Shown in pieces: positions 2,092 through 57,735 of a stretch of 64,000 nucleotides of DNA. Every line of letters begins with the position of its first letter. The first letter of the stretch is position 1. The notes below the pieces were generated by a model. It had not been told where the DNA came from and searched no databases. It was given only the letters and a program-made list of their open reading frames with translations. The DNA is from Squalus acanthias (taxonomy: Eukaryota), in NCBI GenBank assembly GCA_030390025.1, contig CM059431.1, positions 97,962,001 through 98,026,000 on the forward strand. The letters run 5' to 3'. The position numbers and the translations under genes are program-made.

Positions 2092-2244
2092 TTCACGCAC
2101 GCAAGAACGTTACATTAAAACTTTTGAACTTTAGCATAAGTTCCACCAGTTCACATCCTGGCTCTGAGCTTTTTCAAATCCATTGGTTATCACGATAGGC
2201 TCAGGGATCTGCAACTTTTTGCTACAATAGTTTGTAGACTTCCG

Positions 2245-2705: not shown

Positions 2706-2714
2706 TTCTGTTAC

Positions 2715-3012
2715 CGTCTAGTAATCCAGAGAACGCGAGTTCAAATCCCACCAGGGCAGTTTGACAATTTGAAATCAGTTTAAAAATCCTGGAAATAAAA
2801 AGCTGGTCTCAGTAAAAGTGACCGTGAAGCTGTCGGATTGTCGTAAAAACCGATCTGGTTCACTGACGTCCTTTAGGGAAGGAAACCTGCCGTCCTTACC
2901 CGGTCTGGGCCTATACGTGACTCCAGTCCCGCACCAATATCGTTGGCTTTTAGCTGCCCTCTGAAGTGGTTTAGCAAGACACTCAGTTGTATCAAAACCA
3001 CTACCAGTGGTT
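2715..3012 (+). mobile_element. tRNA-derived SINE (family not assigned)
   Basis: B-box gagttcaaatccc; core gggaaggaaacctgccgtccttacccggtctgg shared with 5510 and 52436 copies. Confidence 0.75.
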
Positions 3013-3197
3013 TAAGGGTAAAGGTATTAAGGGTAACAGAACCAAGGCAGGTGGATGGAGTTAAGATACATGACCAGCCATGATCTGATTGAATATAGGA
3101 GCAGGCTCGAGGGGCTGAATGGCCTCCTCCGGTTCCTGTGTTCCTAACACGTCACTTTAGACACGATAGCAATGGAGAATCTTTGCTTCCGGATAAC

Positions 3198-3299
3198 CTG
3201 GTGGTCCTGGGGTTCCTGGGCCTGGAGCACCGATGAAACCTTTCCGTCCCGGGAATCCTGGTCTGGACAATCCTGGAAATCCCAGCTGACCTTTGACAC
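3198..3299 (-). CDS. Collagen IV exon, about 102 bp
   Basis: cag|(G)[34 protein letters not shown]|gttatc; donor weak, so the 3' boundary is less sure. Confidence 0.82.
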
Positions 3300-6200
3300 C
3301 TGGAATGCAACAATTCTTTTTAAGTGACCAAATAGCCCAATGTTGATTGGTGTAAATCATAACGTATATACGGCATCATCGACAGTGCAATATATCTCTG
3401 CGCTACCTTTATCTCCGGGCAAGCCTGGTAGTCCCCTTTGGCCGGGAGATCCTGGGGTTCCACAAGGAATAGCTGTGAAGATTAACATAATAACTGTTTG
3501 TAAACCAAAATTAATCTCCATAAATTCAATAAAATACCAATCATCAAAGCCCTGTTATAATGAATCTCCGATTGAAAAAATTCATATAGACTGCTTCTGA
3601 TATTTTTCTTAATGTTCTCAGGATGTGGGTGCCACTGGCAAGGACAGCATTTATTGCTCATCCCTAGTTGCCCCTTGAGAAGGTGGTGGTGAGCCGCCTT
3701 CTTGAACTGCCGCAGTCCGTGTGGTGAAGGTACTCCCACAGTGCTGTTAGGGAGGGAGTTCCAGGATTTTGACCCAGCGACGATGAAGGAACGGCCGATA
3801 TATTTCCAAGTCAGGATGGTGTGTGACTTGGAGGGGAACTTGGAGGTGGTGGTGTTCCCATGCGCCTGCTGCCCTTGTCCTTCTAGGTGGAAGAGGTCGT
3901 GGATTTGGGAGGTGCTGCTGAAGAAGCCTTGGCGAGTTGCTGCAGTGCATCTTGTAGATGGTACACACTGCAGCCACGGTACGCCGGTGGTGCAGGGAGT
4001 GAATGTTTAAGGTGGTGGATGGGGTGCCAATCAAGTGGGCTGCTTTGTCATGGATGGTATCCAGGCAAGTGGAGAGTATTCCAACACACTCCTGACTTAT
4101 GCCTTGTAGATGGTGGAAAGGCTTTTGGGGAGTCAGGAGGTGAGACACTCACCGCAGAATACTCAGCCTCTGACTTGCTCTTGTAGCCACAGTATTTATG
4201 TGGCTGGTCCAGTGAAGTTTCTGGCCAATGGTGACCCCCCAGGATATTGATGATGGGGATTCGGCGACCACACAGTGTAGGGAAACACCTACTATAATGA
4301 AAAATTCAGCAGAGACTGCTCCAGTTAAAATGAAGCTCCTCAGAGTAAGAATATTACAAGTGAGTTCCACGGCAGAATGAACATCAGCGATGAAATCCTA
4401 TAATGAACATATATGGGCGGATTCCTCTCTCTGGCTCTCACCGTGAGGAATGATTCTCAGTGGCAGCGGGTCTGGGAACTCTGTCAACGGACAGACAATC
4501 ACTGACTGTGGACTGCGATTTGCTGACCTACGCCCAGTGGCCCTATAGTTGCAATCTTGAGATCAACCATTTGGTAAATCTCGGAATGCTGATTGAAATA
4601 TATTAGGAATGTGTCCTGCAAAGAAATGTCCTAATAGCCACATTGCAAGGAATCGTTGTTCGATGGGGAAATAAGCTTCCTGTATGTCCCAGCACCGTGC
4701 TGGGTTGGAGCTTTACGCCCAAATGCATAATGGGTTTTCTCAGTTCCAGGTAAGACCCATCTCGGTCGCTATAATCATCTGTAGCCCACATCCCACAAAA
4801 TGATATACTTATATCATAGAGTTACACAAATTACAGCACAGAAGGAGGCCATTCAGCCCATCGCATCAATCTTCAACTGAAGCTGTGCAATCTAATCCCA
4901 TTCCCTCCCCTTTTCCCGTATGTCTTTATATTCTCCCTTTTTAAATTTTTCTCCAATTCCCCTTGAAATAATGTTTCAGTCTCCGTCTCAATTGTCCCCT
5001 GTGGTAAAATATTCCCTGTTGCAATAAACCTCTGTGAAAACATTTCTTCTAACTCCCCCCCTTCATTCTCCCAGTGAGAATCCTCAGTCTGCGCCCCTCG
5101 TTACTGATTCACCAACCAGTGGAAACAATATTGTACTATTTACCCTCTCAATCTCCTTCAGGACCATGCTAATTGATTCCAATATAAGGCGAAAGGAAAA
5201 CAGATAGAAAATGGTTAACTGGAAAAGGCTAAGAAAATCCCTCCGCTACCTGATTGGAATATTGAGGGATCTTCCTCTCTCGTCAAGATTTCCTGTTCAT
5301 CGATGCAGTCACCTAGCAGAAATAAGAAACACACAAATTTTGATTATATTGAATGGGAGGTAACATGCAGTTAAAAATACTCGCTAAAGATAGCCAATTA
5401 CTTGTCACCTTCGCTGAGATTCATAAGAAGTAGTTCCTGAAATGTTCCTCATACGTTTTATAATCTTTTCATCATCTTCTCTTCTGCCCAAAGGGGTATT
5501 GATAACTGAATTTGTGAGTTCAAATCCCAACAGGGCAAGTTGTGAAACTGAATTCAGTAAAATCTGGTCATTTGTGATAGGATAGCTGGTAAATTGATGG
5601 AACTGGTCAACTATGTCCTTCAGGGAAGGGAACCTACCTGAGTGACTTCAGTCTCACACTATGGGGTAACTCTCAATGCCCTCAGGGGCAACTAGGGATG
5701 GGCAATAAATACCAGCTTTCCAGCGTTGCCCATAACCCGGGAATAAATATTTGAGAAAGGTGTGGGATGCAGTGTTGAACTTTGACTCGGGAAGGCGGGA
5801 CTCGGCAGTCTGGTGCTTAGCACAAGCTTTTGGGGGAAAGCACATCTTGGGAATTTGCAGGTCGGTGGCCTTGGATTTTCCCTCCATTAAAACTAGTCGG
5901 CCTGTCACTAGAGGCTGCTCGCCCACGATTCCCTGGGATCTCCCATCGTAGAATCACCCCTACCGTACACCGATTCCCTGGGATCTCCCATCGTAGAATC
6001 ACCCCTACCGTACATCGATTCCCTGGGATCACCAATCATAGAATCACCCCTACCGTACACCGATTCCCTGGGATCACCAATCATAGAATCACCCCTACCG
6101 TACACCGATTCCCTGGGATCACCAATCATATAATCACCCCTACCGTACATCGATTCCCTGGGATCACCAATCATATAATCACCCCTACCATACATTGATT

Positions 6201-9200
6201 CCCTGGGATCACCAATCATATAATCACCCCTACCGTACATCGATTCCCTGGGATCACCAATCATATAATCACCCCTACCGTACACCGATTCCCTGGGATC
6301 ACCAATCATAGAATCACCCCTACCATACACCGATTCCCTGGGATCACCAATCATAGAATCACCCCTACCGTACACCGATTCCCTGGGATCACCAATCATA
6401 GAATCACCCCTACCGTACACCGATTCCCTGGGATCACCAATCATATAATCACCCCTCCGTACACCAATTCCCTGGGATCTCCCATCGTAGAATCACCCCT
6501 ACCGTACACCGATTCCCTGGGATCACCAATCATAGAATCACCCCTACCGTACACCGATTCCCTGGGATCACCAATCATAGAATCACCTCTACCGTACATC
6601 GATTCCCTGGGATCACCAATCATAGAATCACCCCTACCGTACATCGATTCCCTGGGATCACCAATTGTAGAATCACCCCTACCGTACATCGATTCCCTGG
6701 GATCGCCAATCATAGAATCACCCCTACCGTACATCGATTCCCTGGGATTCACAATCGTAGAATTACCCCTACCGTACACCGATTCCCTGGGATTGCCAAT
6801 CGTAGAATCACCCCTACCGTCATCGATTCCCTGGGATTGCCAATCGTAGAATCACCCCTACCGTACATCGGTGACTCATGACAGGAGGCTGCACCATGCA
6901 AATGAGCGAGTGTCACTAGTGTCAGAAACACGGTGAGGTCAGGCTCACCAGGTTATATTTACAGCTGGTAACAAGTGAAGGCCAAGACTGTTTGATACCA
7001 TTTCTAAAGCAGAAAATACAGTAATGGTCATTTGGCTCAATTCCTGCTTAGAATGAACTCCCGACACTGTGCTTTATAAAATTCAGGATTGTCCACCACC
7101 GACTTCCTATTGCATGTTGTAAATCACAGAATCACACAGCACAGGAGGAGGCCATTCGGCCCATCGTGCCTGTGCTGGCTCTTTGAAAGAGCTCTCCAAT
7201 TAGTCCCACTCCCCCCTGCTCTTTCCCCAGAGCCCAGTAAAATTTTACTCCTTCAAATATTTATCCAATTCCCTTTTGAAAGTTACTATTGAATCTACTT
7301 CCACCGCCCTTTCAGGCAGCGCATTCCAGATCACAACAACTCGCTGCGTAAAAAAATTCTCCTCATCTCCCCCCTTTGGGAGATCAGGGGGCCGGGAGCG
7401 GGGCAAGCGTGGTGACCCATGGAACTCCACCCCGTGTGTGCATGGCATTGGATCCGAGTATGGCGGGGAGGGGTGATCGTGGCACCCGCCCATTTAAATA
7501 TTTAATTGGGAGGGGAGGTTCTGTCATCTACAAAGTTTGGTAAGGCGGGATTTAATCTCTAAAGGACCCCTGTGTGCAATGGGCATCCAGGGGAGCCTAT
7601 TGGCTGTAGTGGAGGCTGCTTAAAGGCCCACAGGTCAGTAAATTCAATCTTTGTATTTCAGCCAGTTGCATCTGTCTTTGTGTGTGTTTCTGTTCAACAA
7701 CAACAACAACTTGTATTTATATAGCACCTTTAACACAGTAAAACGTCCCAAGGCGCCTCACAGGAGCGATTATCAGACAAAATCAGACACCGAGCCACAT
7801 AAGGAGGTATTAGGACAGGTGACCAAAAGCTTAGTCAAAGAGGGAGGTTTTAAGGAGCGTCTTAAAGGAGGAGAGAGAGGTGGAGAGGTTTAGGGAGGGA
7901 ATTCCAGAGCTTAGGGCCCAGGCAGCTGAAGGCACGGCCACCAATGGCAGAGCGATTATAATCAGGGATGTGCAAGAGACCAGAATTGGAGGAGCGCAGA
8001 GATCTCAGAGGGTTGTAGGGCTGGAGGAGGTTACAGAGATAGGGAGGGGTGAGGCCATGGAGGGATTTGAAAACCAGGATGAGAATTTTAAAATCGAGGC
8101 GTTGCCGGACCGGGAGCCAATGAAGATCAGCGAGCACAGGGGTGATGGGTGGACGGGACTTGGTGCGAGTTAGGACACGAGCAGTAGGGTTTTGGATGAC
8201 CTCAGGAAGGATATATTGGTTTTGGAGAGGGAGCAGCGCAGATTCAGCAAAATGAAACCCGGGGCTAAAAGGGTTAAATTACGAGGGCAGGTTGCACAGA
8301 CTAGGCTTGTATTTCCTCGAGGATAGACGATTGAAGGGGGGTCTAATTGAGATGCTTAAGGTGATTCAAGGAGTCGATAGGGTAGATAAAGGGAAACTAT
8401 TTCCTCTTGTGGGGGAGTCCAGAACAAGGGGGCATCACCTTAAAATTAGAGCCAGGCCGTTCAGGGGTGATGTCAGGAAGCACTTCTTCACACAAAGGCG
8501 AGCGGAAATCTGGAACTCTCTCTCCCAAAAAGCTGTTGAGGCTGGGGGTCAATTGAAAATTTCAAAAGTGAGATTGCTAGATCTTTGTTAGGCAAGGGTT
8601 ACGGAACCAGGTTGGGTAGATGGAGTTAAGATACAGATCAGCCATGATCTAATTGAATGGCAGAACAGGCTCGAAGGGCAGAATGGCCTCCTCCTGTTCC
8701 TATGTACAAGCCCTGGCATACCTTCCTGGCGATGACTGTGGGGGCAGTGTCTTCACCTGGACCTGGGTTAGTTTGCTGTGGGTTTGCTGAGCTGCCACTG
8801 CTTCATTGGACTCCATTCCTGCCTGGTGCCAATTGAAGGAAGCCATCAAGTGGAAGTGTGGATGAAGGAAGCTGGGATTGTGCCCCTCAAAGCAGCACTG
8901 CCGGGCAATGGAGGCTTGACCGTGAACAGTCAATTCTCCTCCACAAGTTGCCTTCTATTTAAAGGAAAGTTTCTTAACTTTACAAACTGTCACTTAGCTA
9001 AGACATGGAAGGTGCACACTTACCTGGAGTACCTGGTAGGCCCGGAATACCTGGAATTCCTGGAACACCATCAAGTCCAAGGTCACCAAGAAGACCAAGC
9101 CTCCCTTGAGGACCTCGAATGCCCACGCCCGGCAGGCCAGGCCTTCCCGAGTATCCTTTACGGCCTGGGCCGCCTCGGATACCATCATCACCAGGGTAAC

Positions 9201-12200
9201 CTTTCTGAGCATCACCCTGAAATGTACGTTATACCGTGTATTTAGACAATTGACCAGACATCTACCATTACAGCACCTTAACAACAACAACAACCTGCAT
9301 TTATATAGCGCCTTTAACGTCGTAAAATGTCCCAAGGTGCTTCACAGGAGCGATTATCAAACAGAATCTGACACCGAGCCACATAAGGAGATATTAGGAC
9401 AGGTGACCAAAAGCTTGGTCAAAGAGGTCGGTTTTAAGGAACGTCTTAAAGGAGGAGAGAGAGGCGGAGAGGTTTAGGGAGGGAATTCCAGAGCTTAGGG
9501 CCCAGGCAGCTGAAGGCACGGCCACCAATGGGGGAGCGATGGAAATCAGGGATGCGCAAGAGGCTAGAGTTGGAGGGGCATCATCGGCACTGGTTTAAAT
9601 AATAATATTGATCTGTGCCCCCACCACTGGACTCAGTATCCACCCTGTCCACCACCACAGACAGTGTAAAATACCGGATGTACTGCAGCAACCCACCTCC
9701 CTCTCCTGCGACCTCCACCAATGAGAAGGAGAAGAGCAGCAACATTGTGGGAACACCATTAGCTCCAAGAGAAAGGGCAGCGGACAGATAAACGCAAGGA
9801 GGAGCAGAAGTGGAGGGATGAGGCAGGAGGAGAGGGAAGGGAAGAGGTTAAACAAAGGGATAAGGGAGGGTGTTCCAGAGGCTAAGGGGGCACGGAGGCT
9901 GAAGGAGTAGTGAGGACAGGAATCAAAATGCAAGGCCAGTGTTAGAGAAGTGAAGGCTGTGAGTAGGGGCGTGAAGGAAGTCATTGAGGTGGGAGAGGGT
10001 GGGACAACTCAGACAGATCGCTTTGCTGAGTCAGAGAATCAAAGAATGATACAGCACAGAAGGAGGCCATTCGGCCCCTCGTGCCTGTGCCGGCTCTTTG
10101 AAAGAGCTCTCCAATTAGTCCCACTCCCCCCTGCTCTTTCCCCACAGCCCTGCACATTTCTCCTGGTCAAGTATTTATCCGATTCCCTTTTGAAAGTTAC
10201 TGAATCTGCTTCCACCGCCCTAATATGTGAATATCTATCAGCTCCATAACTTATATAAAGTGCTCTGTCAGATTAACAGAGGTGACTTAGAACTCAACGC
10301 ATCAACTGAAATTGTACTTACAGAAGGTCCTGGAAAGCCTTGCTTGCCCAGTTTACCATCTTGTCCTGGGAGACCTGGTTGTCCATGAGCTCCTGTTCGC
10401 CCAGGCGCTCCTCGATCTCCTTTGGAACCTGAATAAACAGACGTCACGTTACATGTTCGTCTTTGTTTTGTACATTGTTTTTCTGGAAGGGCAAATCAGG
10501 AATTTGAGAACGTAACTGATTTGTGAGTCAATCCTTAAATTGATAGACCAATGAACTGGGGCACCTAAACTCCTGGGGGGAAAAATTCAGCTGCTTGCGC
10601 CTCCCGTTAGTGCCTTAAGAGGGCGCTAATGGGGCGTAAAGCAGCTAACGCCCGGGCGCAGCGCCGCCCACGCCTCCCGAAAAACTTAGTGGGAGGTTAG
10701 CGGCGGCGGCAGCCGGTAGCGCCCTGTGGCGCTGCGCCGCCGGCGATGACGTCATCGCCGTGCGCAGCACCCCGCTCGCGCCCCGGCCGTGATCTTCAGT
10801 CGCGCCCCCTGATTTACCGCCAGACGCTATGTCCGACGGGTTCAGGGAGGCGTACGTGCGGCCGGGGCGGCGATATTTAAAGGGGAGGTGGCAGGCGGCC
10901 ATTTTTGTTGCTGGCCGCCTGCCAGCACCTGCCCCCGTTGCTGTCCCCGGCCCCCGTGAAGCCCCCCCACCGTGAAGTGCCGGCTGCGCTCCAAGAGCCC
11001 GGCACTTCTCTTGAGTGCCGGGCTCTTTTGCCGGCACTCCCGATCCCTGGGGGCCCAGCTGGGCCCCGGTTCGCGCTGCGCAGGGTCCCTCCCCTTTAAG
11101 AAGGGGAGGAAGGCCTGCAATACCGCGGCACGTAGCGCCAGGATATTCACTCGCAGCGCCCCAAGAGGGATGCGGGGTGCTTCCAGTGGCGCCCCGCTTC
11201 CCTCTTGGGGCGCAACCACTGAAGTTCCGGCGCGGGGCCGCTAATTTTTTCGGGGCGCTAAAAGTCGCGCCCCGGCGAGGTTAGCGCCCCAAATGGGGCG
11301 CGACTCAATTTTTACCCCCTGATGTTCACTCCCATCTGCCAATCTCTGCACCACGAGACAAAGATCGATCCTACTGTTGCACCTGGGCTGGCCAGTGGGA
11401 TTTATAAGGAAGTAGCATGGATGGACTCCTCCCTTTGGTTCCTTTTTTTAGAGAGGTGCCTCATCACTGCTCAGAACTCCACTTCGCTTCATCCCTCCCC
11501 TCCCCATGGAACCTCAGTTTCCATGGTACCTCCTCTCGCCATGCTGTCTCCCCTCACTATGAAGCCTCCCCTCCCCATGGTACCTCTCTGAGACAGTCTA
11601 CCTGACGTCATCGGGACAAGCTCACACCTCACCAGCCCTTGGTGCAGTGTAGCCCGATAAACACCAGCTCAAGGATTGGCTTACTCTCAACATTAAACAG
11701 CTTTTCATGTCAGTGTCAGACCTGATAATTGAACAATTCTACAAAAGAATATTGAATGGCGTTTTGCGTTTTCAAATCCCTACAGAAAAATATTCACCTC
11801 TCCTCCCCGACTTCCTCTCCTCCCATCGCCTCCCTCTCCTCCTCCCCGCCTCCCTCTCCTCCTCCCCATATTCTCTCCTCCCTCCATCTTCCTCCCCTCC
11901 CCCCATCTTCCTCCCCTCCCCCCATCTTCCTCCCCTCCCCCCATCTTCCCTTTCCATCCTCTACCCCTCCCCTCTCTTTCCAACACAAAATCGGTTCTTT
12001 CCAGGTCACCACCTAGGCTGGCATTTGCTTATCTGCAGCTCTGCCCCTTGTAAGGGTAGAGCCTCGTTGACCAGTCAGATACTGTACCTTTGGTGGTTAT
12101 GGTGGTGATGATGATAGAATCGCCTTTCTGTCCCTTTGGGCCTCGAGCTCCCACAGCGCCAGCTGCTCCCTGTTGGTGTGACATTAACAACAGATCGTCA

Positions 12201-26764: not shown

Positions 26765-26797
<33 letters not shown>

Positions 26798-26946
26798 GAC
26801 AGAGAGAGAGAGACAGACACAGACACAGAGACAGAGAGAGTACGAGAGAGACAGAGAGAGAGAGACAGAGAGAGAGAGACAGAGAGACAGAGAGAGAGAG
26901 AGACAGAGAGAGAGAGGCAGAGAGAGAGAGACAGAGAGAGAGAGAC

Positions 26947-26979
<33 letters not shown>

Positions 26980-50900: not shown

Positions 50901-53900
50901 CCCAAAATTGAACACAATACTCCAGCTGGGGCCTAACCAGTGTTTTAAAAAGGTTTAGCATAGCAGATGGGACAGATTATCTTAATTGCCATTGTTTTTA
51001 AGAGCAGCCCACACCAAGGGATTGTTGAATTCCTACCTTTGGACCTTGAGCACCTGGGGGTCCGGGCCTGCCCTATGGGGGAGAAGTTTGAGCAAGGTGA
51101 GAATCGGAAGAGCAAATTAAAACAAATAACAGCCACAATACAGAACCAAATAAATCACTCGGGAAGGTTTGGCATTCTGAGCGGGACGATTCCCAATACT
51201 GATACATACTTGTGGTCCTAATATTCCTGGAGGGCCCCTGGAGCCCATCTGTCCGGGGAGACCAGACGTACCCTGCAAGAGAAAGAAAGAACTTGTATTT
51301 CTACAGCGCCTTTCACAACCTCAGCACGTCCCAAAGCGCTTTACAGCCAATGAAGTACTTTTTGGAGTGCAGTCACTGTTGTAATGTAGGAAATGCAGCA
51401 GTCAATTTGCACAGATCCCACAAACAGCAATGTGATAATGACCAGATCATCGGTTCTTTAGTGATGTTGATTGAGGGATAAATATTGGCCAGGACACCGG
51501 GGAGAACTCCCCTGCTCTTCTTTAAATAGCTCCATGGGATCTTATACATCCACCTTGGAGAGCAGTCGGGGCCTCGGTTTAAAGTCTCGTCTGAAAGACA
51601 GCACCTCAGACAGTGCAGCACTCCCTCAGCACTGCACTGGGAGTGTCAGCCTAGATTTTTGTGCTCCAGTCCCTGGAGTGGGACTTGAACCCACAACCTT
51701 CTGACTCGGAGGCGACAGTGCTGCCCACTGAGCCACGGCTGTGACAAAAATAGCATTCAATATTTTAGAGGAACAAAATTTTTACCCAGTGCTCGTTGTA
51801 TCAGATGGGCGTGTTCCCTGTCTGCTGGAGAGGAGGAGTAACAATATCAAGCATAAAATCCAAATCATTATCACAAACACACCCCAGATTGAGGGAGTTG
51901 TTGTTCCGAGTTGGTGCTTCAAGTGAGGGAGCCTCTGTCACCAGAAGCTTCTATCGGAGGTTCGGACGTGAGTTGCCCACGATTTCCTGCAGTTTTGGAC
52001 GGACAATCACGGGGAAGGCTGTGCTCCCGGCTGGTCAGCCTCCCCGCATGAAACAGGAACTCTGAAAATGCCCCCCTCCCACTGCCCCAAAACCCAAAGA
52101 CTTACTGGATAACCAGGAGCACCTGCATGACCAGGATCACCCTGTAAACGGAAAGAGAATGGCACGTGGTTAGAATAGAATCATATTTCTTTTCATTTCT
52201 CCCTCCCTTTCCCATTGCCCGGTGGTTTCCCCCCTTTCTCCCCACTGTTTCCCAGAGGAATGATGGTTAGGCAGCTTGAACGCAGGCCTCATCTAATACC
52301 CTTATGACTCAGAGCCCGAGGGCGATGAGGTGCACGAATGATAAGGCTGTTGTGAATTAACTTACGCCGTAGTCTCAGTCACCAAACCGAGATCAGGCGC
52401 TCACTATTCACTGCAGTGTGATAATGAATCAATGATATGTGGGCGTTGCTGACAAGGCCGGCATTTATTGCCCATCCCTAGTTGCCCTGAGAAGATTGTG
52501 GTGAGTCGCCGCCTTCTTGAACCACCAGGCTTGCTGGGCCACTTCACAGGGCAGTCAAGGGGCTGGAGTCACACATAGGCCCAGACCGGGTAAGGACGGC
52601 AGGTTTCCTTCCCTAAAGGACATTGGTAAACCAGATGGGTTTTTACGACAATCCGACAGCTTCATGGTCACTTTTACTGACACCAGCTTTTCATATCTAG
52701 ATTTGTAAAACTGAATTGAAATTCTCAAACTTCTAGAAACTCACGTTCCGTGGATTCCTGGCCCAGTAACAGAGCCACGGCACCACAGCACCCACTCAAA
52801 CCTGGCGTCACAGATCTATGCCTCGTTTCTCAGTTCAGTTGTTCCCACTTTGCGCCTGTTAATTACGAGGACAGGTTGCCCAGGCTAGGCTTGTATTCCC
52901 TCGAGTGTAGACGATTAAGGGGTGATCTAATCGAGGTGTTTAAGATGATTATAGGATTCGATGGGGTAGAGAGAGAGAAACTATTTCCTCTGGTGGAGGG
53001 AGTCCAGAACAAGGGGGCATCACCTTAAATGATGAGGAAATCTATCGCAAGGAAGCATCACATACAGGCCACATACTGTCACACACCGCTTGGAATGTGT
53101 GTTCATTTGCAGAGTTATGTGAAACTCACCCTAAATCTCGTCCGCTCGACTGTAACGAGAAAAGGCTCCCCCTTCTGCCCCTTCCGGCCGGGAGCTCCCT
53201 ATGTAAGCAGCGAAGAATAAAAACATCAGCAGATCAGAATTTGTCTCTACAGCCTTCCGGACTCAACATTGAATTCAACAATTTCAGATCATAACCACTG
53301 CTCCCATTCTATCAGACAGCAGGAGCTGTTGATGATTCTGATTCCCATTCACACCTCCTCTTGACCCATCTTTTGTTTCTTTACTTATCCCATTACCATC
53401 TCCTTTCACCTTGCACCATCATCCCTTTTGTCATTTACCCTCTCCTGCCTTCCATCCTATCACAGACCTTCCCTTTTGTTCTTTCCTCCCCTCCCCCCTT
53501 TCCCAGCCCCTACACTTGCTTAAAAACCTGTTCCAACTCCAGCTTTTTCCAGTTCTGACGAAGGGTCATCGACCTGAAACGTTAACTCTGTTTCTCTCTC
53601 CACAGATGCTGCCTGACCTGCTGAGTGTTTCCAGCACTTTGTTTTTATTTCAGATTTGAAGCATCCGTAATATTTGGCTTTTGTTTCAGAATTTGTCTTC
53701 TTATGTGTGGTGTAAAAAATGCAAGAAGAAATGTTAGAACTGAAAACCATGAGAATGTGAGGATAGATTCAGCGATGCTGCACTCCCTCACTGATCCGCA
53801 CTCAGTGGGACTGGAGTTCTCAAATAGGACCATTAATATTATGGGATCAATTCTGGGACCCGTGTCCCCAGCGAATGAGACTTTGCGAAGGACAACAGCC

Positions 53901-56900
53901 TCATTGAATTCCATTTGATGTCTCCCTCACACATGTTCCTCATAGATTCTAAAACAGTTCAAAAAACATTCTCTTTCCTTGCCCAATTTAACTCTTTACA
54001 ACTCCTAGATATTTTTGCATCCTATTTCATTATATCATTACATTATAGGACTCTTGCATTAAATATTAAAGTGGTGTTTTGCCCAGGGCCAGGTGACAAA
54101 CGTGTTTAAAAAACAATAAGCTGGCAATGGAGTTGGGAGAAGATTTCAGAAATTTGATCGGTGGAGCCACTTAGTGGCCAGAGTTTGCAACTACATCGTG
54201 ACAGTTGACATAGGAAAATTGAATGGGAAATGTTGAAATAGCAGAATTTCCTCTCAATGAGGAGAAATTATTTTACAGAGCAAGTTGTTATGATCTGGAA
54301 TGCGCTGCCTGAAAGGGTGGTGGAAGCAGATTCAATAGTAACTTTCAAAAGGGAACTGGATAAATATTTGAAGGAGAGAAATTTGCAGGGCTGTGGGGAA
54401 AGAGCAGGGAGTGGGAATAATTGGAGAACTCTTTCAAAGAGCCGGCACAATGGGCCGAATGGCCTCCTTCTGTGCAATAAGATTCTATGTTTCTTTGAAC
54501 ACAGGGTTTTTTTTTAAACAATTTAAACTCTCGATGTGGTGAGAATGCAGGTCCATTTGGCAAAGGCTGGCTTTCCCAGTTCTGATAATGTTGTTCGCTC
54601 TCACCCTGCACGTGATGTATTTCAGTAACATTTACTTACAGGGAAGCCCAACAAAGCAGGAAACCCGGGTGGTCCCATTTCACCGGGAACTCCTCTCGTT
54701 CCATTGCATCCATCGTGTCCGGGAGGTCCCCTGGGGCCTGGTTGTCCTGGGTGACCCTACAACAGCAACAGTCTCATCACAAGATCCAGCTAAGCGAAGA
54801 CAGTTCTACTGTTCCTACTGAATGATAAACTCTAGGAACCAACATCAAATCAATAAAACAACCATCTCCTTTAAATCCAGTTACAGTTTATATAAAGCTC
54901 TGGTCAGACCCCATCTGGACACTACATTCAGTTCTGGGCCCCACACCTCAGAATGGATATACTGACCTTGGAGGGGGGGCAGTGCAGATTCACCAGAATG
55001 GTATTGGGGCTAAAAGGGTTAAATTACGAGGACAGGTTGCACAGACTAGGCCTGTATTCCCTCGAGTGTAGAAGATTAAGGGGTGATCTAATCGAGGTGT
55101 TTAAGATGATTGAAGAAGTTGATCGGGTAGATAGAGAGAAACTATTTCCTCTGGTGGGGGGAGTCCAGAACAAGGGGGAATAACCTTAAAATTAGAGCCA
55201 GGCCGTTCAGGGGTGATGTCAGGAAGCACTTCTTCACACAAAGGGTGGTGGAAATCTGGAACTCTCTCCCCCAAAAAGCTGTTGAGGCTGGGGGTCAATT
55301 GAAAATTTAAAAAATGAGATTGATAGATTTTTGTTGGGTAAGGGTATTAAGGATTACAGAACCAAGGCGGGTAGATGGAGTTGAGATACAGATCAGCCAC
55401 AATCTCATTGAATGGCGGAACAGGCCAGAGGGGCTGAATGGCCTCCTCCTGTTCCTATGACTTGGTTACTGCCCTTCACTGAATCACCCCCTTCCCAGGA
55501 ATCTCTGAATCAAGCAATCAGATAGTTCCCAGTTAGGGTAGATACAAAGAAACTACTTCCTCTGGTGGGGGAATCGAGGATGATACCAGGGCTGAATGGG
55601 TTAATTTCTGGGGCCAGGTTGCATAAACTTGGTTTGCCTTCCCTTGCGTTTAGACGGTTGAGGGGAGATCTGATCGAGGTGTTTAAACTGATAGCTCGAG
55701 GGGCCGATTGGCCTACTCCTGCTCCTGTTTCTTATGAGAGAGATCCCATAATGCAATTGCCAGGAGACTTGTTACCGCCGCCCCTCCCCCCCGCCCCCCA
55801 GACCGTGTACTTACCGGTATCCCATCATTCCCTGCAAATCCGGGGACACCCATTGGTCCCTGTTTTAAAACAAGATAGCGAACAGATCGAGTAAGCAATC
55901 GAGTTAATGCAAGTCACAACACACATTAAACCTCACATTCCTGAGTTACCAGTGATGTGGACCAGCGCAGCTTTAGGGTTGGACTTTACAAACGTGCACT
56001 CCCGGTTTGGAACACGCCACGTGGAATGTGTGCCGGGGGTTGTCGGGACTGCTGGAGACAGGCTGCAGCTGGGAGAGGAGCTTGGAACGGTGCAGTTCCG
56101 GGTCTCTGGCCTGCTGTCCACGTTGGGAGCGCGGGCTGGGGGAACCAGCGAGATCGGGTGAGAGATCGGTTCTGCAATAGTCGCCTTCACTGGCCGAATT
56201 CCTGATGGCCACTCCCAACTCGCAAGGCTTGCCAATAGGGAGCGCAACCAGTGATGGATAGCGCGGCCTCACTGGGAGAGGGTGGGAGGCTGGTAAACGG
56301 GCTAAAGACAGGCGCTGGGAATCTCCGCCATGGTTCTCCCGAAATCCCGCCGTACTTTCGATGGAAGATCGGAGCAATCTCGGAGAGACGGTGCAAACTG
56401 CCAAAGGGTCAGGAATTTGGGGAATTGGGATCTCACCTCTTTAAACAAGTTTTGCTAAATTGCATGGGGGAGGGGTGGTGTCGGGGAGGGGGTATGTTCC
56501 ACCTGTCCCTCCTGACCTCAAGGACGGGGGCTATCTGGGGGATGTTCCTGAGCTACCCTGTGAATTCCGCCCAGTATGTCCTTGGCAGTCCCCAGGGTAA
56601 CCCATGCCAGCGAGGCCTCAGGAAAGGCTCCAAGCCATCGGCAGGTGGAGATCATCGATCCCGGATGTGCCCCTTTAGCTGCTCGATGAGCTGAGGAGTA
56701 AAAAACTCGCCTGTGATCGGCTCCTTCCCAGATTTGGTGTCTCTGGTCTGCTGAACAAGCGCAGGTAGAGCAGAGCCGCAGGGATTTCAGGCTGTGTAGG
56801 TGCACAGGGTTTACGGGGTAAATGTTAGGAGGTTGTGACGGTCACTGTGCCTCCAATTTACCAGCGATTTATTGAAATGACCAGTAAACCTGGCCTCACA

Positions 56901-57735
56901 CACTTTACCCTAAATATATCACACTGGAAAGATGGTGGTGATATTTCTGGCAGTACCGGTTCCCTACAAGCCTTGGCAAATAAATAGATTTCTGTCAGAA
57001 AATAACATTTTGTGCTCCAGTATCTGAGTAATTGGAGACATGAGGTGTGGTGAATGTAGCGAGCTCGGGAGGAACAGGTGACTTTGGACCTCTGGTTCCC
57101 AAAGCTCTCCACCACTGGGGGTTTTCCCCACCTCATGTCTGGGTCTGTTGTAGACTCATTGATAGAGATTGATCGCTGTGATTGGTCAACAACTCCATTA
57201 TCGTTGGATCATGGGACTACCAGGATGGGAGAGGGTGAACTAGATGGACCGTGGTCTTTTCTCATCCAGCGATTCCGATGTTCCTAATGGTGAGTTAACT
57301 GGAATCTGGTGATAACTATTCCAAGGATTGGTTAGTGGGTTCCAGTGTCCACCAACTCGGCCATCAGATCAGTCACTGAAGCAAGCAATATCCCTCTGCC
57401 CTATTCCCTTGTAGCCACGACTGAATCTCAGTTCAACTACTTAAAGCCCAGTGGCCAATTTGGACATCATCACAAACAGGATGTTGAATTATTTCCATTA
57501 ATGAACAATGTCCAATCAGTCGATGCACTGGGAACCGCACAGAAATATTGGGCCGTTCAATTGGTTTTCTGATCAGTTTAAATGATTGTGTTATACCCAC
57601 CTTGTCTCCGGTATGTCCAGTCAATCCGTCTGTGCCTCTGTAACCTTTGTGTCCCTTATATCCAGGCACTCCCTGACGCCCACGAGGCCCCGGTGGGCCC
57701 TGAGGCCCCTGAACTCCCGGGATACCCGGCCGGCC
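3198..57735 (-). CDS. Type IV collagen alpha chain, even-numbered (alpha2/alpha4/alpha6) class; partial multi-exon gene (24 exons in window)
   Basis: 24 GT-AG exons splice in frame to Gly-X-Y with interruptions; 7S motif [25 protein letters not shown] motif; exon size run 135-45-117-69-36-63-36-42 matches the recalled COL4A2/4/6 pattern. Confidence 0.95.
3407..3472 (-). CDS. Collagen IV exon, 66 bp
   Basis: cag|(A)[22 protein letters not shown]|gtagcg; phase 1-1. Confidence 0.88.
3605..4270 (-). mobile_element. LINE 3' fragment, second non-LTR family
   Basis: [33 protein letters not shown]2 C-terminus; same family as 39757-40500. Confidence 0.85.
5250..5312 (-). CDS. Collagen IV exon, 63 bp, non-collagenous Cys-loop interruption
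   Basis: tag|(G)[20 protein letters not shown]|gtagcg; phase 1-1; positioned like the alpha2(IV) loop exon. Confidence 0.8.
5510..5750 (+). mobile_element. Degraded tRNA-derived SINE, same family as 2715
   Basis: gagttcaaatcccaacagggc head, gtccttcagggaagg core, ctagggatgggcaataaat tail. Confidence 0.6.
5926..6870. repeat. 45-bp minisatellite, about 21 copies
   Basis: unit cgattccctgggatcaccaatcatagaatcacccctaccgtacac. Confidence 0.95.
7125..7372 (-). mobile_element. CR1 3' fragment
   Basis: [28 protein letters not shown] and 3' motif. Confidence 0.85.
7694..8203 (-). mobile_element. L2 LINE 3' fragment
   Basis: [26 protein letters not shown]; (caa)n tail. Confidence 0.9.
8204..8705 (+). 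mobile_element. CR1 3' fragment
   Basis: [22 protein letters not shown]. Confidence 0.88.
9024..9216 (-). CDS. Collagen IV exon, 193 bp
   Basis: cag|[65 protein letters not shown]|gtaagt; phase 0-1. Confidence 0.93.
9278..9578 (-). mobile_element. L2 3' fragment
   Basis: same tail and sequence as 7694 copy. Confidence 0.88.
10030..10220 (-). mobile_element. CR1 3' fragment
   Basis: matches 7125 copy. Confidence 0.8.
10322..10428 (-). CDS. Collagen IV exon, 107 bp
   Basis: cag|(G)[35 protein letters not shown]|gtaagt; phase 1-0. Confidence 0.92.
10576..11318. mobile_element. GC-rich non-autonomous DNA transposon (MITE-like, possibly PIF/Harbinger)
   Basis: TIRs GGGGGAAAAATTCAG / GGGGTAAAAATTGAG, flanked on both sides by CTG; no coding capacity. 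Confidence 0.75.
11798..11980. repeat. CT-rich low-complexity tract
   Basis: cctcccctccccccatcttc repeats. Confidence 0.85.
12088..12169 (-). CDS. Collagen IV exon, 82 bp
   Basis: cag|[28 protein letters not shown]|gtacag; phase 0-1. Confidence 0.9.
12670..13520 (+). mobile_element. Deu-domain SINE (SacSINE1-like) with internal 33-bp array (about 12774-13261)
   Basis: tRNA head (tggctcagtgg, ggttcaaagtccc), Deu core cgtctttcggatgagacgttaaac, L2-like tail. Confidence 0.88.
13735..13889 (-). CDS. Collagen IV exon, 155 bp (CAC motif)
   Basis: cag|(G)[51 protein letters not shown]|gtaagt; phase 1-0. Confidence 0.93.
14365..14868 (+). mobile_element. L2 3' fragment
   Basis: [25 protein letters not shown]. 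Confidence 0.9.
14959..17483 (-). mobile_element. CR1 LINE, 5'-truncated within endonuclease; ORF2 with one frameshift near 16065
   Basis: MGDFN, SDH, RT motifs in 486 aa + 336 aa ORFs; (ttctatgt)n tail. Confidence 0.96.
20160..20654 (+). mobile_element. Penelope-like element 3' fragment
   Basis: [20 protein letters not shown] (GIY-YIG C-terminus) followed by hammerhead-bearing terminal region; atacaggaa on both sides. Confidence 0.85.
20521..20557 (+). ncRNA. Minimal hammerhead ribozyme motif (Penelope-associated)
   Basis: agtt-CTGATGA-aaggtcttcgacct-GAAAC-GTT-aact. Confidence 0.7.
20658..23212 (+). mobile_element. Full-length Tigger/pogo DNA transposon (2555 bp)
   Basis: TA flanks; imperfect 26-bp TIRs CAGGAAACTCTT-N6-CCGGCACC; transposase inside. 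Confidence 0.95.
21143..22908 (+). pseudogene. Tigger/pogo DD32D transposase (Jerky/TIGD-like), one frameshift near 21410
   Basis: HTH start [51 protein letters not shown]; 32 residues between 2nd and 3rd Asp. Confidence 0.9.
24073..24625 (+). mobile_element. CR1 3' fragment, different subfamily
   Basis: [22 protein letters not shown]; (tatgattc)n tail. Confidence 0.9.
24816..24887 (-). CDS. Collagen IV exon, about 72 bp
   Basis: tag|(E)[24 protein letters not shown]|gtaagg; acceptor chosen for frame compatibility. Confidence 0.82.
24990..25145 (-). CDS. Collagen IV exon, 156 bp
   Basis: tag|(G)[51 protein letters not shown]|gtcagt; phase 1-1. Confidence 0.9.
25718..26180. mobile_element. 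GC-rich MITE-like element related to 10576-11318
   Basis: start resembles reverse complement of the 11250-11318 end; shared ttagcgcc and ttaaaggggag motifs. Confidence 0.55.
26722..27170. repeat. (GA)n/(GACA)n microsatellite
   Basis: direct. Confidence 0.95.
27429..27539 (-). CDS. Collagen IV exon, 111 bp
   Basis: cag|(G)[37 protein letters not shown]|gtacgt; phase 1-1. Confidence 0.9.
27622..31085. repeat. 17/18-bp minisatellite, about 3.46 kb, roughly 200 copies
   Basis: unit C5-6-gatatagaaaca. Confidence 0.97.
31880..32130 (+). mobile_element. Degraded CR1 3' fragment
   Basis: ggaaatctggaactctct and gatcagccatgatct motifs. Confidence 0.7.
32245..32308 (-). CDS. Collagen IV exon, 64 bp
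   Basis: cag|[22 protein letters not shown]|gtatgt; phase 0-1; contains RGD. Confidence 0.9.
33410..33700. repeat. G-rich tandem tract (ggggacggtgatggtgggggtggggtg-like)
   Basis: direct. Confidence 0.9.
34118..34352. repeat. GA-rich low-complexity tract
   Basis: direct. Confidence 0.85.
34435..34640 (-). mobile_element. Deu SINE 3' half
   Basis: ttgaagtgtagtcactgttgtaatgtaggaaac motif. Confidence 0.8.
34738..34791 (-). CDS. Collagen IV exon, 54 bp
   Basis: cag|[18 protein letters not shown]|gtaatt. Confidence 0.9.
34967..35343. repeat. Minisatellite, about 35-43 bp unit, about 10 copies
   Basis: gggactccctgagccagatgttctggacaggggca. Confidence 0.9.
36090..36835 (+). mobile_element. CR1-like 3' fragment with long 3' UTR
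   Basis: [11 protein letters not shown] remnant, [14 protein letters not shown]; same family as 2245-2520. Confidence 0.8.
36921..37921 (-). mobile_element. CR1 3' fragment (1 kb)
   Basis: KFADDTK and QRDLGV-HLEYC-RTRGH motifs. Confidence 0.93.
38070..38114 (-). CDS. Collagen IV exon, 45 bp
   Basis: tag|[15 protein letters not shown]|gtgagt. Confidence 0.9.
38205..38267 (-). CDS. Collagen IV exon, 63 bp
   Basis: tag|[21 protein letters not shown]|gtaagg. Confidence 0.91.
38490..38543 (-). CDS. Collagen IV exon, 54 bp
   Basis: cag|[18 protein letters not shown]|gtgagt. Confidence 0.9.
38705..39035 (-). mobile_element. CR1 3' fragment
   Basis: [26 protein letters not shown]. Confidence 0.85.
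39757..40500 (+). mobile_element. LINE 3' fragment, same family as 3605-4270
   Basis: [34 protein letters not shown]; agggatgggcaataaatgc tail. Confidence 0.88.
41015..45282 (-). mobile_element. Deu SINE with expanded 33-bp array (41143-42162 and 44721-45180), interrupted by CR1
   Basis: tRNA head 45200-45282, Deu core 41015-41142, array continuous across the CR1. Confidence 0.88.
42163..44720 (-). mobile_element. CR1 LINE, 5'-truncated, two frameshifts
   Basis: [30 protein letters not shown]; (ttctatga)n tail. Confidence 0.95.
45424..45513 (-). CDS. Collagen IV exon, 90 bp
   Basis: cag|[30 protein letters not shown]|gtaaaa. Confidence 0.9.
46020..47172 (-). mobile_element. CR1 3' fragment (1.15 kb)
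   Basis: RT motifs [12 protein letters not shown]; (ttcttatg)n tail. Confidence 0.93.
47518..47559 (-). CDS. Collagen IV exon, 42 bp
   Basis: cag|[14 protein letters not shown]|gttggt; resembles the GNxGxxFxGxKGxK exon of even chains. Confidence 0.88.
47598..48058 (-). mobile_element. Full-length Deu SINE with a single 33-bp unit
   Basis: tRNA head, Deu core, L2-like tail. Confidence 0.9.
48237..48452 (+). mobile_element. CR1 internal fragment
   Basis: [20 protein letters not shown]. Confidence 0.85.
48492..48590 (+). pseudogene. H2B: Histone H2B 5' fragment (33 codons) fused to CR1
   Basis: [33 protein letters not shown], an H2B N-terminal tail ending just before the expected ESY. Confidence 0.88.
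48591..49010 (+). mobile_element. CR1 3' fragment
   Basis: [26 protein letters not shown]; tgggccaaatggcctcc 3' motif. Confidence 0.88.
49150..49492 (+). mobile_element. Degraded CR1 3' fragment
   Basis: [18 protein letters not shown]. Confidence 0.7.
50118..50962 (-). mobile_element. CR1 3' fragment interrupted by an L2 piece (about 50619-50865)
   Basis: [18 protein letters not shown] at 50870-50962 continues below 50618; L2 (caa)n tail at 50619. Confidence 0.85.
51037..51072 (-). CDS. Collagen IV exon, 36 bp
   Basis: tag|[12 protein letters not shown]|gtagga. Confidence 0.88.
51210..51272 (-). CDS. Collagen IV exon, 63 bp
   Basis: cag|[21 protein letters not shown]|gtatgt. Confidence 0.9.
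51281..51741 (-). mobile_element. Full-length Deu SINE abutting an exon acceptor
   Basis: tRNA head, Deu core, tail ending ttctttctttc. Confidence 0.9.
52106..52141 (-). CDS. Collagen IV exon, 36 bp
   Basis: cag|[12 protein letters not shown]|gtaagt. Confidence 0.9.
52436..52790 (-). mobile_element. tRNA-derived SINE with LINE-derived 3' tail
   Basis: core matches 2715 copy; tail matches 3620-3710. Confidence 0.8.
52858..53030 (+). mobile_element. CR1 fragment
   Basis: [23 protein letters not shown]. Confidence 0.8.
53130..53198 (-). CDS. Collagen IV exon, 69 bp
   Basis: tag|[23 protein letters not shown]|gtgagt. Confidence 0.92.
53245..53685 (+). mobile_element. Penelope-like element 3' fragment
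   Basis: [19 protein letters not shown] plus hammerhead-bearing terminal region as at 20160. Confidence 0.85.
53551..53587 (+). ncRNA. Minimal hammerhead ribozyme motif
   Basis: agtt-CTGACGA-agggtcatcgacct-GAAAC-GTT-aact. Confidence 0.7.
54256..54490 (+). mobile_element. CR1 3' fragment
   Basis: [20 protein letters not shown]. Confidence 0.85.
54640..54756 (-). CDS. Collagen IV exon, 117 bp (7S, CNGT N-glycosylation sequon)
   Basis: tag|[39 protein letters not shown]|gtaagt. Confidence 0.94.
54885..55460 (+). mobile_element. CR1 3' fragment
   Basis: same subfamily as 8204-8705. Confidence 0.88.
55815..55859 (-). CDS. Collagen IV exon, 45 bp
   Basis: cag|[15 protein letters not shown]|gtaagt. 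Confidence 0.93.
57601..57735 (-). CDS. Collagen IV exon, 135 bp (7S region)
   Basis: ttctag|[45 protein letters not shown]|gtgggt; phase 0-0. Confidence 0.93.

What the first reader, a model, noticed from the sequence alone, without database searches (positions are those of the whole stretch)
3198..57735. Collagen IV chain with mixed alpha2 and alpha4/alpha6 features: possibly a fourth even-numbered paralog
Seen: the spliced product has [29 protein letters not shown], a CAC motif, GQKGEPF-ERTRFR, GEEGIMG, GDS-TITTKG and a two-Cys loop exon. Recalled from human chains: the first two look like alpha6/alpha4, the rest like alpha2. Established: the three COL4A pairs sit next to IRS2, IRS1 and IRS4, and IRS3 marks a fourth paralogous region with no COL4A pair in mammals. 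Inference: this is either a shark chain keeping ancestral characters or an extra paralog lost from bony vertebrates, which would imply an undescribed collagen IV protomer.
Basis: partly seen in the sequence, partly recalled or inferred. Interest (0 to 1): 0.72.

Follow-up and report, generated by a model that had tools for sequence, protein, structure and literature searches.

The report
Shark COL4A2 gene, not a new paralog
This is the front half of the ordinary collagen IV alpha-2 gene (COL4A2) of a shark, one of exactly six collagen IV genes in this genome, so it is not evidence for an undescribed extra chain.

Summary
On the minus strand, 23 exons (57735 to 3198) all have AG/GT borders and splice into an open 659-residue collagen IV chain.

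The fourth-paralog reading is refuted.
- **Gene count.** The genome (3.7 Gb) has six collagen IV NC1 loci in three head-to-head pairs, on contigs C5, C6 and C7. Two independent searches found nothing further.
- **Position.** The window's gene is the even-numbered member of the C7 pair. About 103 kb downstream lies one of only two cysteinyl-tRNA synthetase genes, and about 146 kb downstream an ING gene. Human has the same order: COL4A2, CARS2, ING1 (PMC6169464).
- **IRS2 and LIG4.** Both lie on the same contig, 6 and 8 Mb away. This matches the cartilaginous-fish inversion described in PMC12141075, which also reports six COL4 genes in shark.
- **The other pairs.** They carry alpha-3/4 and alpha-5/6 markers.
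- **The "alpha-6/alpha-4-like" motif.** It occurs in all three even chains of this genome, so it does not discriminate.

One weakness remains. Sequence trees place the gene with alpha-2 only weakly (71/45), and AU tests do not reject alpha-6 or alpha-4. The assignment therefore rests on position. Verdict: ordinary and already known.

The parts
57601..57735 (-). Exon 1 of the window model (7S/collagenous, 45 aa, ends in G-D-K); phase 0/0
   Evidence: AG/GT borders, in-frame with the next exon
55815..55859 (-). Exon 2 (15 aa, GPMGVPGF motif)
54640..54756 (-). Exon 3 (39 aa, 7S motif with D-G-C-N-G). Same-size paralogous exons exist in the C6 and C5 even genes.
53130..53198 (-). Exon 4 (23 aa, GQKGEPF...ERTRFR interruption)
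   Evidence: A similar GQKGEPY interruption is seen in the named bird alpha-2 P0116.
52106..52141 (-). Exon 5 (12 aa)
51210..51272 (-). Exon 6 (21 aa)
51037..51072 (-). Exon 7 (12 aa)
45424..45513 (-). Exon 8 (30 aa, with a short interruption). The donor is less certain: an alternative donor at 45460 has a lower score.
38490..38543 (-). Exon 9 (18 aa)
38205..38267 (-). Exon 10 (21 aa, GEEGIMG)
38070..38114 (-). Exon 11 (15 aa)
34738..34791 (-). Exon 12 (18 aa)
32245..32308 (-). Exon 13 (64 nt, ends in phase 1, with an interruption)
27429..27539 (-). Exon 14 (111 nt)
24990..25145 (-). Exon 15 (156 nt)
24816..24887 (-). Exon 16 (72 nt). The acceptor was chosen among five in-phase AG sites.
13735..13889 (-). 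Exon 17 (155 nt) with the C-A-C motif, the C-x-C cystine-knot position inside an interruption
   Evidence: PMC12107170 passages: one residue between the two Cys in alpha-2 and alpha-6.
12088..12169 (-). Exon 18 (82 nt, GDS...ITTITTK interruption)
10322..10428 (-). Exon 19 (107 nt)
9024..9216 (-). Exon 20 (193 nt, the longest collagenous exon in the window)
   Evidence: aligns with bird alpha-2 P0116
5250..5312 (-). Exon 21 (63 nt, non-collagenous; holds the first Cys of the 21-residue loop)
   Evidence: (the candidate with the best acceptor score, 7.4, of 8 phase-compatible candidates between 9023 and 3473)
3407..3472 (-). Exon 22 (66 nt; the second Cys of the loop, then Gly-X-Y resumes)
3198..3299 (-). 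Exon 23 (102 nt), the last exon inside the finding. The gene continues beyond position 1 to the NC1 exons at C7:97892207-97895195.

Best explanation
The finding is exons of the COL4A2 orthologue (collagen IV alpha-2 chain) of a shark. It is transcribed from the minus strand. The window holds the part from inside the 7S domain to about the middle of the triple helix.

**Shown here**
- An open 23-exon, 659-residue Gly-X-Y chain with interruptions.
- A 3-exon, 12-Cys NC1 domain of the even-numbered type, 67-70 kb downstream.
- An odd-numbered partner on the opposite strand of the same contig. The two NC1 ends are 603 kb apart.
- The neighbours of human COL4A2 (CARS2-type and ING genes) downstream in the same order.
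- IRS2 and LIG4 on the same contig.
- The other two pairs of the genome carry the alpha-3/4 and alpha-5/6 markers.

**Inferred from established knowledge of collagen IV, not tested here**
- The chain joins two alpha-1 chains through the NC1 domains and zips into an alpha-1/alpha-1/alpha-2 protomer.
- The 7S part, with its Cys and N-glycosylation motif, joins four protomers.
- The C-x-C motif forms the interchain cystine knot.
- The interruptions give flexibility.
- The 21-residue Cys-bounded stretch forms an intrachain loop.

The apparent mixture of alpha-2 and alpha-4/alpha-6 characters reflects motifs shared by all even-numbered chains.
For: **1. Gene count**
- Pfam C4 over the whole genome gave 24 matches of 41 scored candidates. 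All fall in six clusters that form three opposite-strand pairs.
- With the gene's own 95-aa NC1 exon as query, 12 matches at E<=1 came from 33 candidates. Eleven lie in the six loci, nine of them at E<=1.4e-11. The twelfth is a hit with E 0.08 and three stops on C2.

**2. Even type**
- NC1 lies in three exons, and 228 aa with 12 Cys were assembled.
- PDB: alpha-2 scored 217 and 176 bits against alpha-4 at 188 and 147.

**3. Microsynteny**
- tRNA-synt_1e hits lie at C7:97780611-97789416 (+), 103-112 kb downstream of the NC1 end. The only other hits in the genome are on C10.
- ING hits lie at C7:97739545-97746154 (-), 146-153 kb downstream.
- The human order is COL4A2, RAB20, CARKD, CARS2, ING1, with CARS2 128-193 kb and ING1 about 202 kb beyond COL4A2 (PMC6169464, Table 1 passage).

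**4. IRS2 and LIG4**
- The C7 IRS gene (91.82 Mb) is 99% identical to a protein named IRS2 of a sawshark, and 77-81% identical to gar, sturgeon, lungfish and coelacanth IRS2.
- It sits inside the IRS2 clade (SH-aLRT 99, starred).
- The only DNA_ligase_IV match in the genome is at C7:89.75 Mb.
- PMC12141075 (passages) reports that shark has six COL4 genes in three pairs. It also reports that an inversion in cartilaginous fishes puts IRS2 distal to COL4A1|2 on the same chromosome.

**5. Elimination**
- The C5 even gene groups with alpha-4 (98/99, starred). IRS1 lies 196 kb beyond it, and Miff/MFF lies 20 kb beyond its partner.
- The C6 even gene groups with alpha-6 (94/91). An IRS gene lies 109 kb beyond its partner on the opposite strand, and AMMECR1 lies 3.4 Mb further.

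**6. Sequence**
- The best tree joins the window gene to bony-vertebrate alpha-2 (71/45).

**7. Cys loop**
- The C-x21-C loop aligns with the same loop in a bird protein named alpha-2.
Against: **Sequence alone does not prove orthology.**
- In the NC1 tree (56 rows, 228 columns) the window gene stands alone with one unnamed relative in an unresolved fork. It falls outside the starred bony-vertebrate alpha-2 clade.
- With 419 columns its union with alpha-2 has only 71/45 support. AU tests do not reject a union with alpha-6 (p 0.278) or with alpha-4 (p 0.182).
- Raw NC1 identity is higher to tetrapod alpha-6-type proteins (81-84%) than to tetrapod alpha-2 (77-78%).
- In the pre-NC1 collagenous part, alpha-2 references scored higher on the window gene than on the C6 gene in only 5 of 10 cases. 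Alpha-6 references preferred C6 in 9 of 9.

**The partner is not identified by sequence.** Its NC1 exons do not tell alpha-1 from alpha-5; the differences are at most 4 bits.

**Gaps in the synteny evidence.**
- IRS2 is 6 Mb away, not adjacent.
- RAB20 was not looked for.
- NAXD and PCCA were not detected by the six-frame family searches.
- That the C7 CysRS is the mitochondrial CARS2 type rests on position only.
- No protein named IRS4 was in my IRS tree, so calling the C6 IRS 'IRS4' rests on position and on the paper.
Confidence: 0.93

Rival explanations
1. The window gene is the COL4A6 orthologue and the C6 pair is COL4A1|COL4A2, that is, the two assignments are swapped.
For: - NC1 identity is higher to tetrapod alpha-6-type proteins (81-84%) than to alpha-2 (77-78%).
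- The AU test does not reject window plus alpha-6 (p 0.278).
- The partner NC1 exons do not separate alpha-1 from alpha-5.
Against: - The C6 even gene itself sits in the alpha-6 clade (85/87; 94/91).
- Alpha-6 references prefer the C6 gene over the window gene in 9 of 9 cases.
- CysRS and ING genes lie downstream of the window gene in the order of human 13q34.
- IRS2 and LIG4 are on C7, not C6.
- AMMECR1 is on C6.
- The IRS next to the C6 pair lies on the opposite strand downstream of the odd gene, as PMC12141075 describes for IRS4 and COL4A5.
Confidence: 0.03
2. The window gene is a fourth even-numbered paralog kept in sharks, and the true COL4A2 has been lost or is missing from the assembly.
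For: - The gene does not join any of the three even clades with support.
- The genome holds a fourth IRS-like gene (C2997), so a fourth IRS region exists.
Against: - Only six COL4 loci were found by two searches.
- The gene sits in the COL4A2 position with the COL4A2 neighbours.
- IRS2, not the fourth IRS, is on its contig.
- No C4 match fell on C2997, a 4.07-Mb contig.
- A published survey reports six genes in shark, corresponding to the three known pairs (PMC12141075, passages).
Confidence: 0.01
3. It is COL4A2 by descent, but part of its sequence has been homogenised with the alpha-6 gene by gene conversion, or the two pairs split very shortly before sharks and bony vertebrates diverged. 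Either would blur the sequence signal.
For: - The tree is unresolved and the AU tests do not reject the alternatives.
- The window and C6 NC1 domains are 81.6% identical, and the two odd partners 88.5%.
Against: - NC1 is very conserved in all chains, so short internodes alone explain the poor resolution.
- The C6 and C5 genes do join their clades.
- No tract-wise test for conversion was run.
Confidence: 0.03

Closest known systems
COL4A2 (collagen IV alpha-2 chain) of jawed vertebrates
   Same: - Even-type NC1 in three exons with 12 Cys.
- Opposite-strand pairing with an odd chain.
- CARS2-type and ING genes downstream in the human order.
- IRS2 and LIG4 on the same contig.
- C-x-C cystine-knot motif.
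- C-x21-C loop, as in a bird protein named alpha-2.

   Different: - It does not join bony-vertebrate alpha-2 with support in trees (71/45).
- IRS2 is 6 Mb away rather than next to the partner. The literature already describes this for cartilaginous fishes (PMC12141075).
COL4A6 (collagen IV alpha-6 chain)
   Same: - Even-type NC1.
- C-x-C knot spacing, which mouse alpha-2 and alpha-6 share (PMC12107170).
- 81-84% NC1 identity to tetrapod alpha-6-type proteins.
- The 7S exon is 64% identical to the C6 gene's exon.
   Different: - Another gene of this genome (C6) occupies the alpha-6 clade and the IRS/AMMECR1 neighbourhood.
- The window gene has the 13q34-type neighbours instead.
COL4A4 (collagen IV alpha-4 chain)
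   Same: Even-type NC1 and the same 117-nt 7S exon with the D-G-C-N-G motif (56% identity).
   Different: - The C5 gene is the alpha-4 orthologue (98/99 starred, next to IRS1 and MFF).
- The PDB alpha-4 NC1 scores about 29 bits lower than alpha-2 on both exons tested.

Membership tests
Collagen IV, even-numbered (alpha-2-like) subfamily | C-terminal NC1 made of two C4 repeats with 12 conserved Cys | tested here: met
   PF01413 matched over its cut-off at C7:97892207-97895195. 228 aa with 12 Cys were assembled. The closest solved chains are collagen IV NC1 domains.
Collagen IV, even-numbered (alpha-2-like) subfamily | NC1 encoded by three exons. Odd chains use five; this rule is recalled, not taken from a call. 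| tested here: met
   The three even genes of this genome show three exon blocks, and the three partners show four to five.
Collagen IV, even-numbered (alpha-2-like) subfamily | Long Gly-X-Y domain with many interruptions and a 7S part with a Cys/N-glycosylation motif | tested here: met
   659 aa with 14 Gly-X-Y runs separated by interruptions, and C-N-G-T in exon 3. The same motif is present in the C6 and C5 even genes.
Collagen IV, even-numbered (alpha-2-like) subfamily | Head-to-head pairing with an odd-numbered gene | tested here: inconclusive
   The partner NC1 lies at C7:98488692-98495218 on the opposite strand, 603 kb from this gene's NC1. I did not locate the shared promoter or the first exons; they lie beyond 64000.
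COL4A2 orthology group | Conserved neighbours downstream (RAB20, NAXD, CARS2, ING1) | tested here: met
   CysRS lies 103-112 kb and ING 146-153 kb downstream. The human order comes from PMC6169464. NAXD was not detected. RAB20 was not searched.
COL4A2 orthology group | IRS2 linked to the pair | tested here: met
   An IRS2-clade gene lies on the same contig 6.1 Mb away, and LIG4 lies 8.1 Mb away. A distal position is reported for cartilaginous fishes (PMC12141075).
COL4A2 orthology group | Sequence groups with alpha-2 of other vertebrates | tested here: inconclusive
   The fork is unresolved in the NC1 tree. Support is 71/45 with 419 columns. AU does not reject alpha-6 (0.278) or alpha-4 (0.182).
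COL4A2 orthology group | The other even genes of the genome are the alpha-4 and alpha-6 orthologues | tested here: met
   C5 groups with alpha-4 (98/99 starred) and C6 with alpha-6 (94/91). Each has matching neighbours.
Hypothetical fourth COL4 pair | A seventh or eighth COL4 gene in addition to the six canonical ones | tested here: not met
   Two searches found six loci only. These searches score the best candidates only, so the count is formally a lower bound.
Hypothetical fourth COL4 pair | Linkage to the fourth IRS gene (IRS3) | tested here: not met
   The fourth IRS-like gene is on contig C2997 (4.07 Mb), on which no C4 match fell. The window's contig carries IRS2.

The most novel reading that the evidence does not exclude
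By position this is COL4A2, yet its C-terminal 420 residues do not join bony-vertebrate alpha-2 with support, and its NC1 is closer in raw identity to tetrapod alpha-6. A reading that is not excluded: in sharks the alpha-1|2 and alpha-5|6 pairs either exchanged sequence by gene conversion or separated only just before sharks and bony vertebrates diverged. In that case shark alpha-2 would be close to the ancestral even chain.

A linked point: a fourth, divergent IRS-like gene survives on another contig without any COL4 pair beside it. It would mark the fourth paralogous region after its COL4 pair was lost.
Probability: 0.12. Interest if true: 0.35.

Novelty: already known. Interest (0 to 1): 0.07.

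Why it matters
It matters little beyond annotation. The result removes a candidate for an undescribed collagen IV chain and protomer. It also confirms, in one more shark genome, two published findings: six COL4 genes in three pairs, and IRS2 displaced from COL4A1|2 by an inversion (PMC12141075).

It carries a methodological caution. Collagen IV 7S and NC1 motifs are too conserved among paralogs to assign orthology from motifs or from NC1 trees alone. Gene order settled the question here.

Tried and rejected
- A database search with the 45-aa 7S exon returned only unrelated collagens (XXI, MARCO and others; 49 hits) and no collagen IV. I therefore obtained no N-terminal alpha-4 or alpha-6 reference from other species.
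- The search of 1.84 billion representatives gave almost only fragments. Only one of the 150 listed exceeded 1000 aa (P0230, 1681 aa), and I did not use it.
- tblastn of long references against the window was swamped by Gly-X-Y cross-matches.
- A free local alignment with bird alpha-2 P0116 chose a wrong register. Restricting the alignment to residues 1-560 gave a usable match only for the last ~130 residues, including the Cys loop. P0116 is a poor gene model with out-of-frame stretches.
- Summed tblastn scores of the pre-NC1 collagenous part were noisy. Alpha-2 references preferred the window gene over C6 in 5 of 10 cases, alpha-6 references preferred C6 in 9 of 9, and alpha-4 references preferred C5 in 4 of 5.
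[quoted passage not shown] The C5 partner was best to alpha-3 by about 4 bits.
- Family searches for NAXD (PF01256) and for the PCCA-specific domain (PF18140) found nothing. The likely reason is that short exons escape the six-frame search, so this is no evidence of absence.
- The first automatic exon chains took in false exons (a tandem-repeat reading frame at 31171-27624 and others) and missed three real ones. I corrected them by hand from the DNA.
- The protein-atlas look-up of the fourth IRS-like gene named only generic IRS clusters and did not tell whether it is IRS3.

Full report
**What is in the window.**
All Gly-X-Y reading frames that chain together lie on the minus strand. Automatic chaining was corrected by reading the DNA at the doubtful borders. 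The result is 23 exons from 57735 down to 3198.

All 23 exons have AG acceptors and GT donors. They splice into 1978 nt, or 659 residues, without a stop. A scan of the 22 introns for further phase-compatible Gly-rich exons found none.

The product has 14 Gly-X-Y runs separated by interruptions and five Cys. One Cys is in a C-N-G-T context in exon 3. Two form a C-A-C motif in exon 17. Two are 21 residues apart and lie in exons 21 and 22.

The only correction is that the two loop cysteines sit in two neighbouring exons.

No Cys-rich 7S start or signal exon lies between 57736 and 64000; that stretch holds 33-bp satellite arrays. The gene therefore begins beyond 64000 and continues beyond position 1.

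**The rest of the gene and the gene count.**
The window is C7:97962001-98026000 of a 3.71-Gb assembly. A whole-genome search with the Pfam C4 family gave 24 matches among 41 scored candidates. All fall in six clusters that form three pairs on opposite strands:
- C7 at 97.892-97.895 Mb (-) with C7 at 98.489-98.495 Mb (+).
- C6 at 146.970-146.973 Mb (-) with C6 at 147.623-147.630 Mb (+).
- C5 at 22.999-23.001 Mb (-) with C5 at 23.366-23.371 Mb (+).

The first cluster is the NC1 of the window's gene, 67-70 kb downstream of position 1. It lies in three exons, and I assembled 228 aa with 12 Cys. Its partner and the two other plus/minus partners show the four-to-five-exon pattern of odd chains.

A second search used this gene's own 95-aa NC1 exon. 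It found the same six loci and nothing else of note: 12 matches of 33 candidates at E<=1, and the only one outside the six loci has E 0.08 and three stops. These searches score best candidates only, so formally they give lower bounds. Still, two different queries agree.

**Sequence-based assignment is weak.**
- Solved human and bovine alpha-2 NC1 chains score higher than alpha-4 on both exons tested (217 vs 188 bits; 176 vs 147 bits). No separate alpha-6 chain is among the solved structures matched.
- A database search with the NC1 exon returned 454 proteins at E<=1e-10 among 482 candidates. I used 50 of the 120 listed, chosen for a name or for taxon spread.
- Raw identity of the window NC1 is 81-84% to tetrapod alpha-6-type proteins and 77-78% to tetrapod alpha-2.
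- In a careful tree of 56 NC1 rows, C5 joins alpha-4 (100/98, starred) and C6 joins alpha-6 (85/87). Bony-vertebrate alpha-2 forms a starred clade (97/94). The window gene stands with one unnamed 94%-identical protein in an unresolved fork.
- I then added the last four collagenous exons of the three even genes, taken from 30 kb fetched upstream of each NC1. That tree has 35 rows and 419 columns. It keeps C5 in alpha-4 (98/99, starred) and C6 in alpha-6 (94/91), and joins the window gene to alpha-2 with only 71/45.
- AU tests do not reject a union with alpha-6 (p 0.278) or alpha-4 (p 0.182).
- The partner's NC1 exons cannot tell alpha-1 from alpha-5.

**Position settles it.**
Downstream of the gene, towards lower coordinates, there are two marker genes:
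- Matches to cysteinyl-tRNA synthetase lie at C7:97780611-97789416 on the opposite strand. The only other matches in the genome are on C10.
- Matches to the ING family lie at C7:97739545-97746154 on the same strand.

Table 1 of PMC6169464 (passage read) lists the human order as IRS2, COL4A1, COL4A2, RAB20, CARKD, CARS2, ING1, ANKRD10, with distances similar to those seen here. That the strand pattern also matches human is my recollection and comes from no call.

The genome has four long single-exon IRS genes. I searched with an alignment of their N-terminal parts. The C7 gene at 91.82 Mb is 99% identical to a protein named IRS2 of a sawshark. It is 91-93% identical to IRS2 of four other sharks and 77-81% identical to IRS2 of gar, sturgeon, lungfish and coelacanth. 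In a quick tree of 36 rows it lies inside the IRS2 clade (SH-aLRT 99, starred).

The single match to the LIG4-specific domain is at C7:89.75 Mb. Human LIG4 on 13q33 is recalled, not taken from a call.

IRS2 being 6 Mb from the pair rather than beside the odd gene is what PMC12141075 describes (passages read). [quoted passage not shown] The same paper states that shark has six COL4 genes corresponding to the three vertebrate pairs.

**The other two pairs.**
- **C5.** An IRS1-clade gene lies 196 kb beyond the even gene. A Miff/MFF gene lies 20 kb beyond the odd gene. The paper describes the same for COL4A4-IRS1 and COL4A3-MFF.
- **C6.** An IRS gene lies 109 kb beyond the odd gene on the opposite strand, as the paper describes for IRS4 and COL4A5. 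An AMMECR1-family gene lies 3.4 Mb further on. That human AMMECR1 lies near IRS4 on the X chromosome is recalled.
- The C6 IRS falls in a clade of cartilaginous-fish proteins that NCBI names 'IRS 2-A-like'. This clade is sister to IRS2. No protein named IRS4 was among the 120 listed hits, so I did not test that name by sequence.

**Why the features looked mixed.**
The 117-nt exon with the G-x-P-G...D-G-C-N-G motif has same-sized counterparts in the C6 and C5 even genes, at 64% and 56% identity. All three carry the motif. It is therefore a family character, not an alpha-6 or alpha-4 mark.

The C-x-C motif is the cystine knot. In mouse it has one residue between the cysteines in both alpha-2 and alpha-6 (PMC12107170, passages).

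The C-x21-C loop aligns with an identical spacing in a bird protein named alpha-2 (P0116). I could not test whether alpha-4 and alpha-6 lack it.

**Function.**
Nothing here departs from a normal alpha-2(IV) chain. Assembly with two alpha-1 chains, 7S tetramer formation, the interchain knot and the flexible interruptions are inferred from the literature on the family. They were not tested.

**Verdict.**
This is an ordinary COL4A2 orthologue. The fourth-paralog idea is refuted by gene count and by synteny. The remaining uncertainty is only that sequence trees are poorly resolved.

Supplements of the papers were not opened. Figures 5-7 of PMC12141075, which show the shark gene maps, are not held as text.

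Noticed in passing
G000:C2997:27559-27840 (locus L026); contig of 4.07 Mb: A fourth IRS-like gene with a 912-aa open frame. It is distinct from the other three (53-68% identity over the aligned parts). No PH domain is in frame upstream of the PTB domain, and its branch in the IRS tree is very long. PMC5482937 found no Irs3 in elephant shark, so this may be a shark Irs3 or a decaying copy. No collagen IV match fell on that contig.
   Followed up: partly
G000:C6:147739269-147739553 (locus L028): The IRS gene next to the C6 (alpha-5/6-type) pair falls in a cartilaginous-fish clade whose members NCBI names 'insulin receptor substrate 2-A-like'. By position it should be IRS4, so the public names may be misleading.
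   Followed up: partly
window 27623-31085: A 17-bp unit is repeated about 201 times (95% matches) inside an intron. It is open in one minus-strand frame for over 1100 codons and fooled the first exon chain. It also explains the strong GC and AT skew at 28-32 kb.
   Followed up: yes
window 12773-13265, 41143-42162, 44721-45178, 60145-60855, 62954-64000: The same 33-bp satellite (91-93% matches, 14-32 copies per array) occurs at five intronic sites in both orientations. A separate 45-bp array lies at 5926-6867.
   Followed up: partly
locus L014, about 1884-3127 on the minus strand (G000:C7:97895450-97896693): Reverse-transcriptase-like open frames (a LINE-type element) lie in the intron just upstream of the first NC1 exon.
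   Followed up: no
window 2622-2648, 7189-7215, 10104-10130; also L001 and L007: The same short translated motif (G-G-V-G-L-I-G-E-L) recurs in several introns of the gene. It most likely marks copies of one interspersed repeat.
   Followed up: no
locus L027 (G000:C7:91816081-91819365): The closest named proteins to this genome's IRS genes are from sharks. The C7 IRS2 is 99% identical to that of a sawshark (Pristiophorus japonicus), which suggests that species or a close relative.
   Followed up: no
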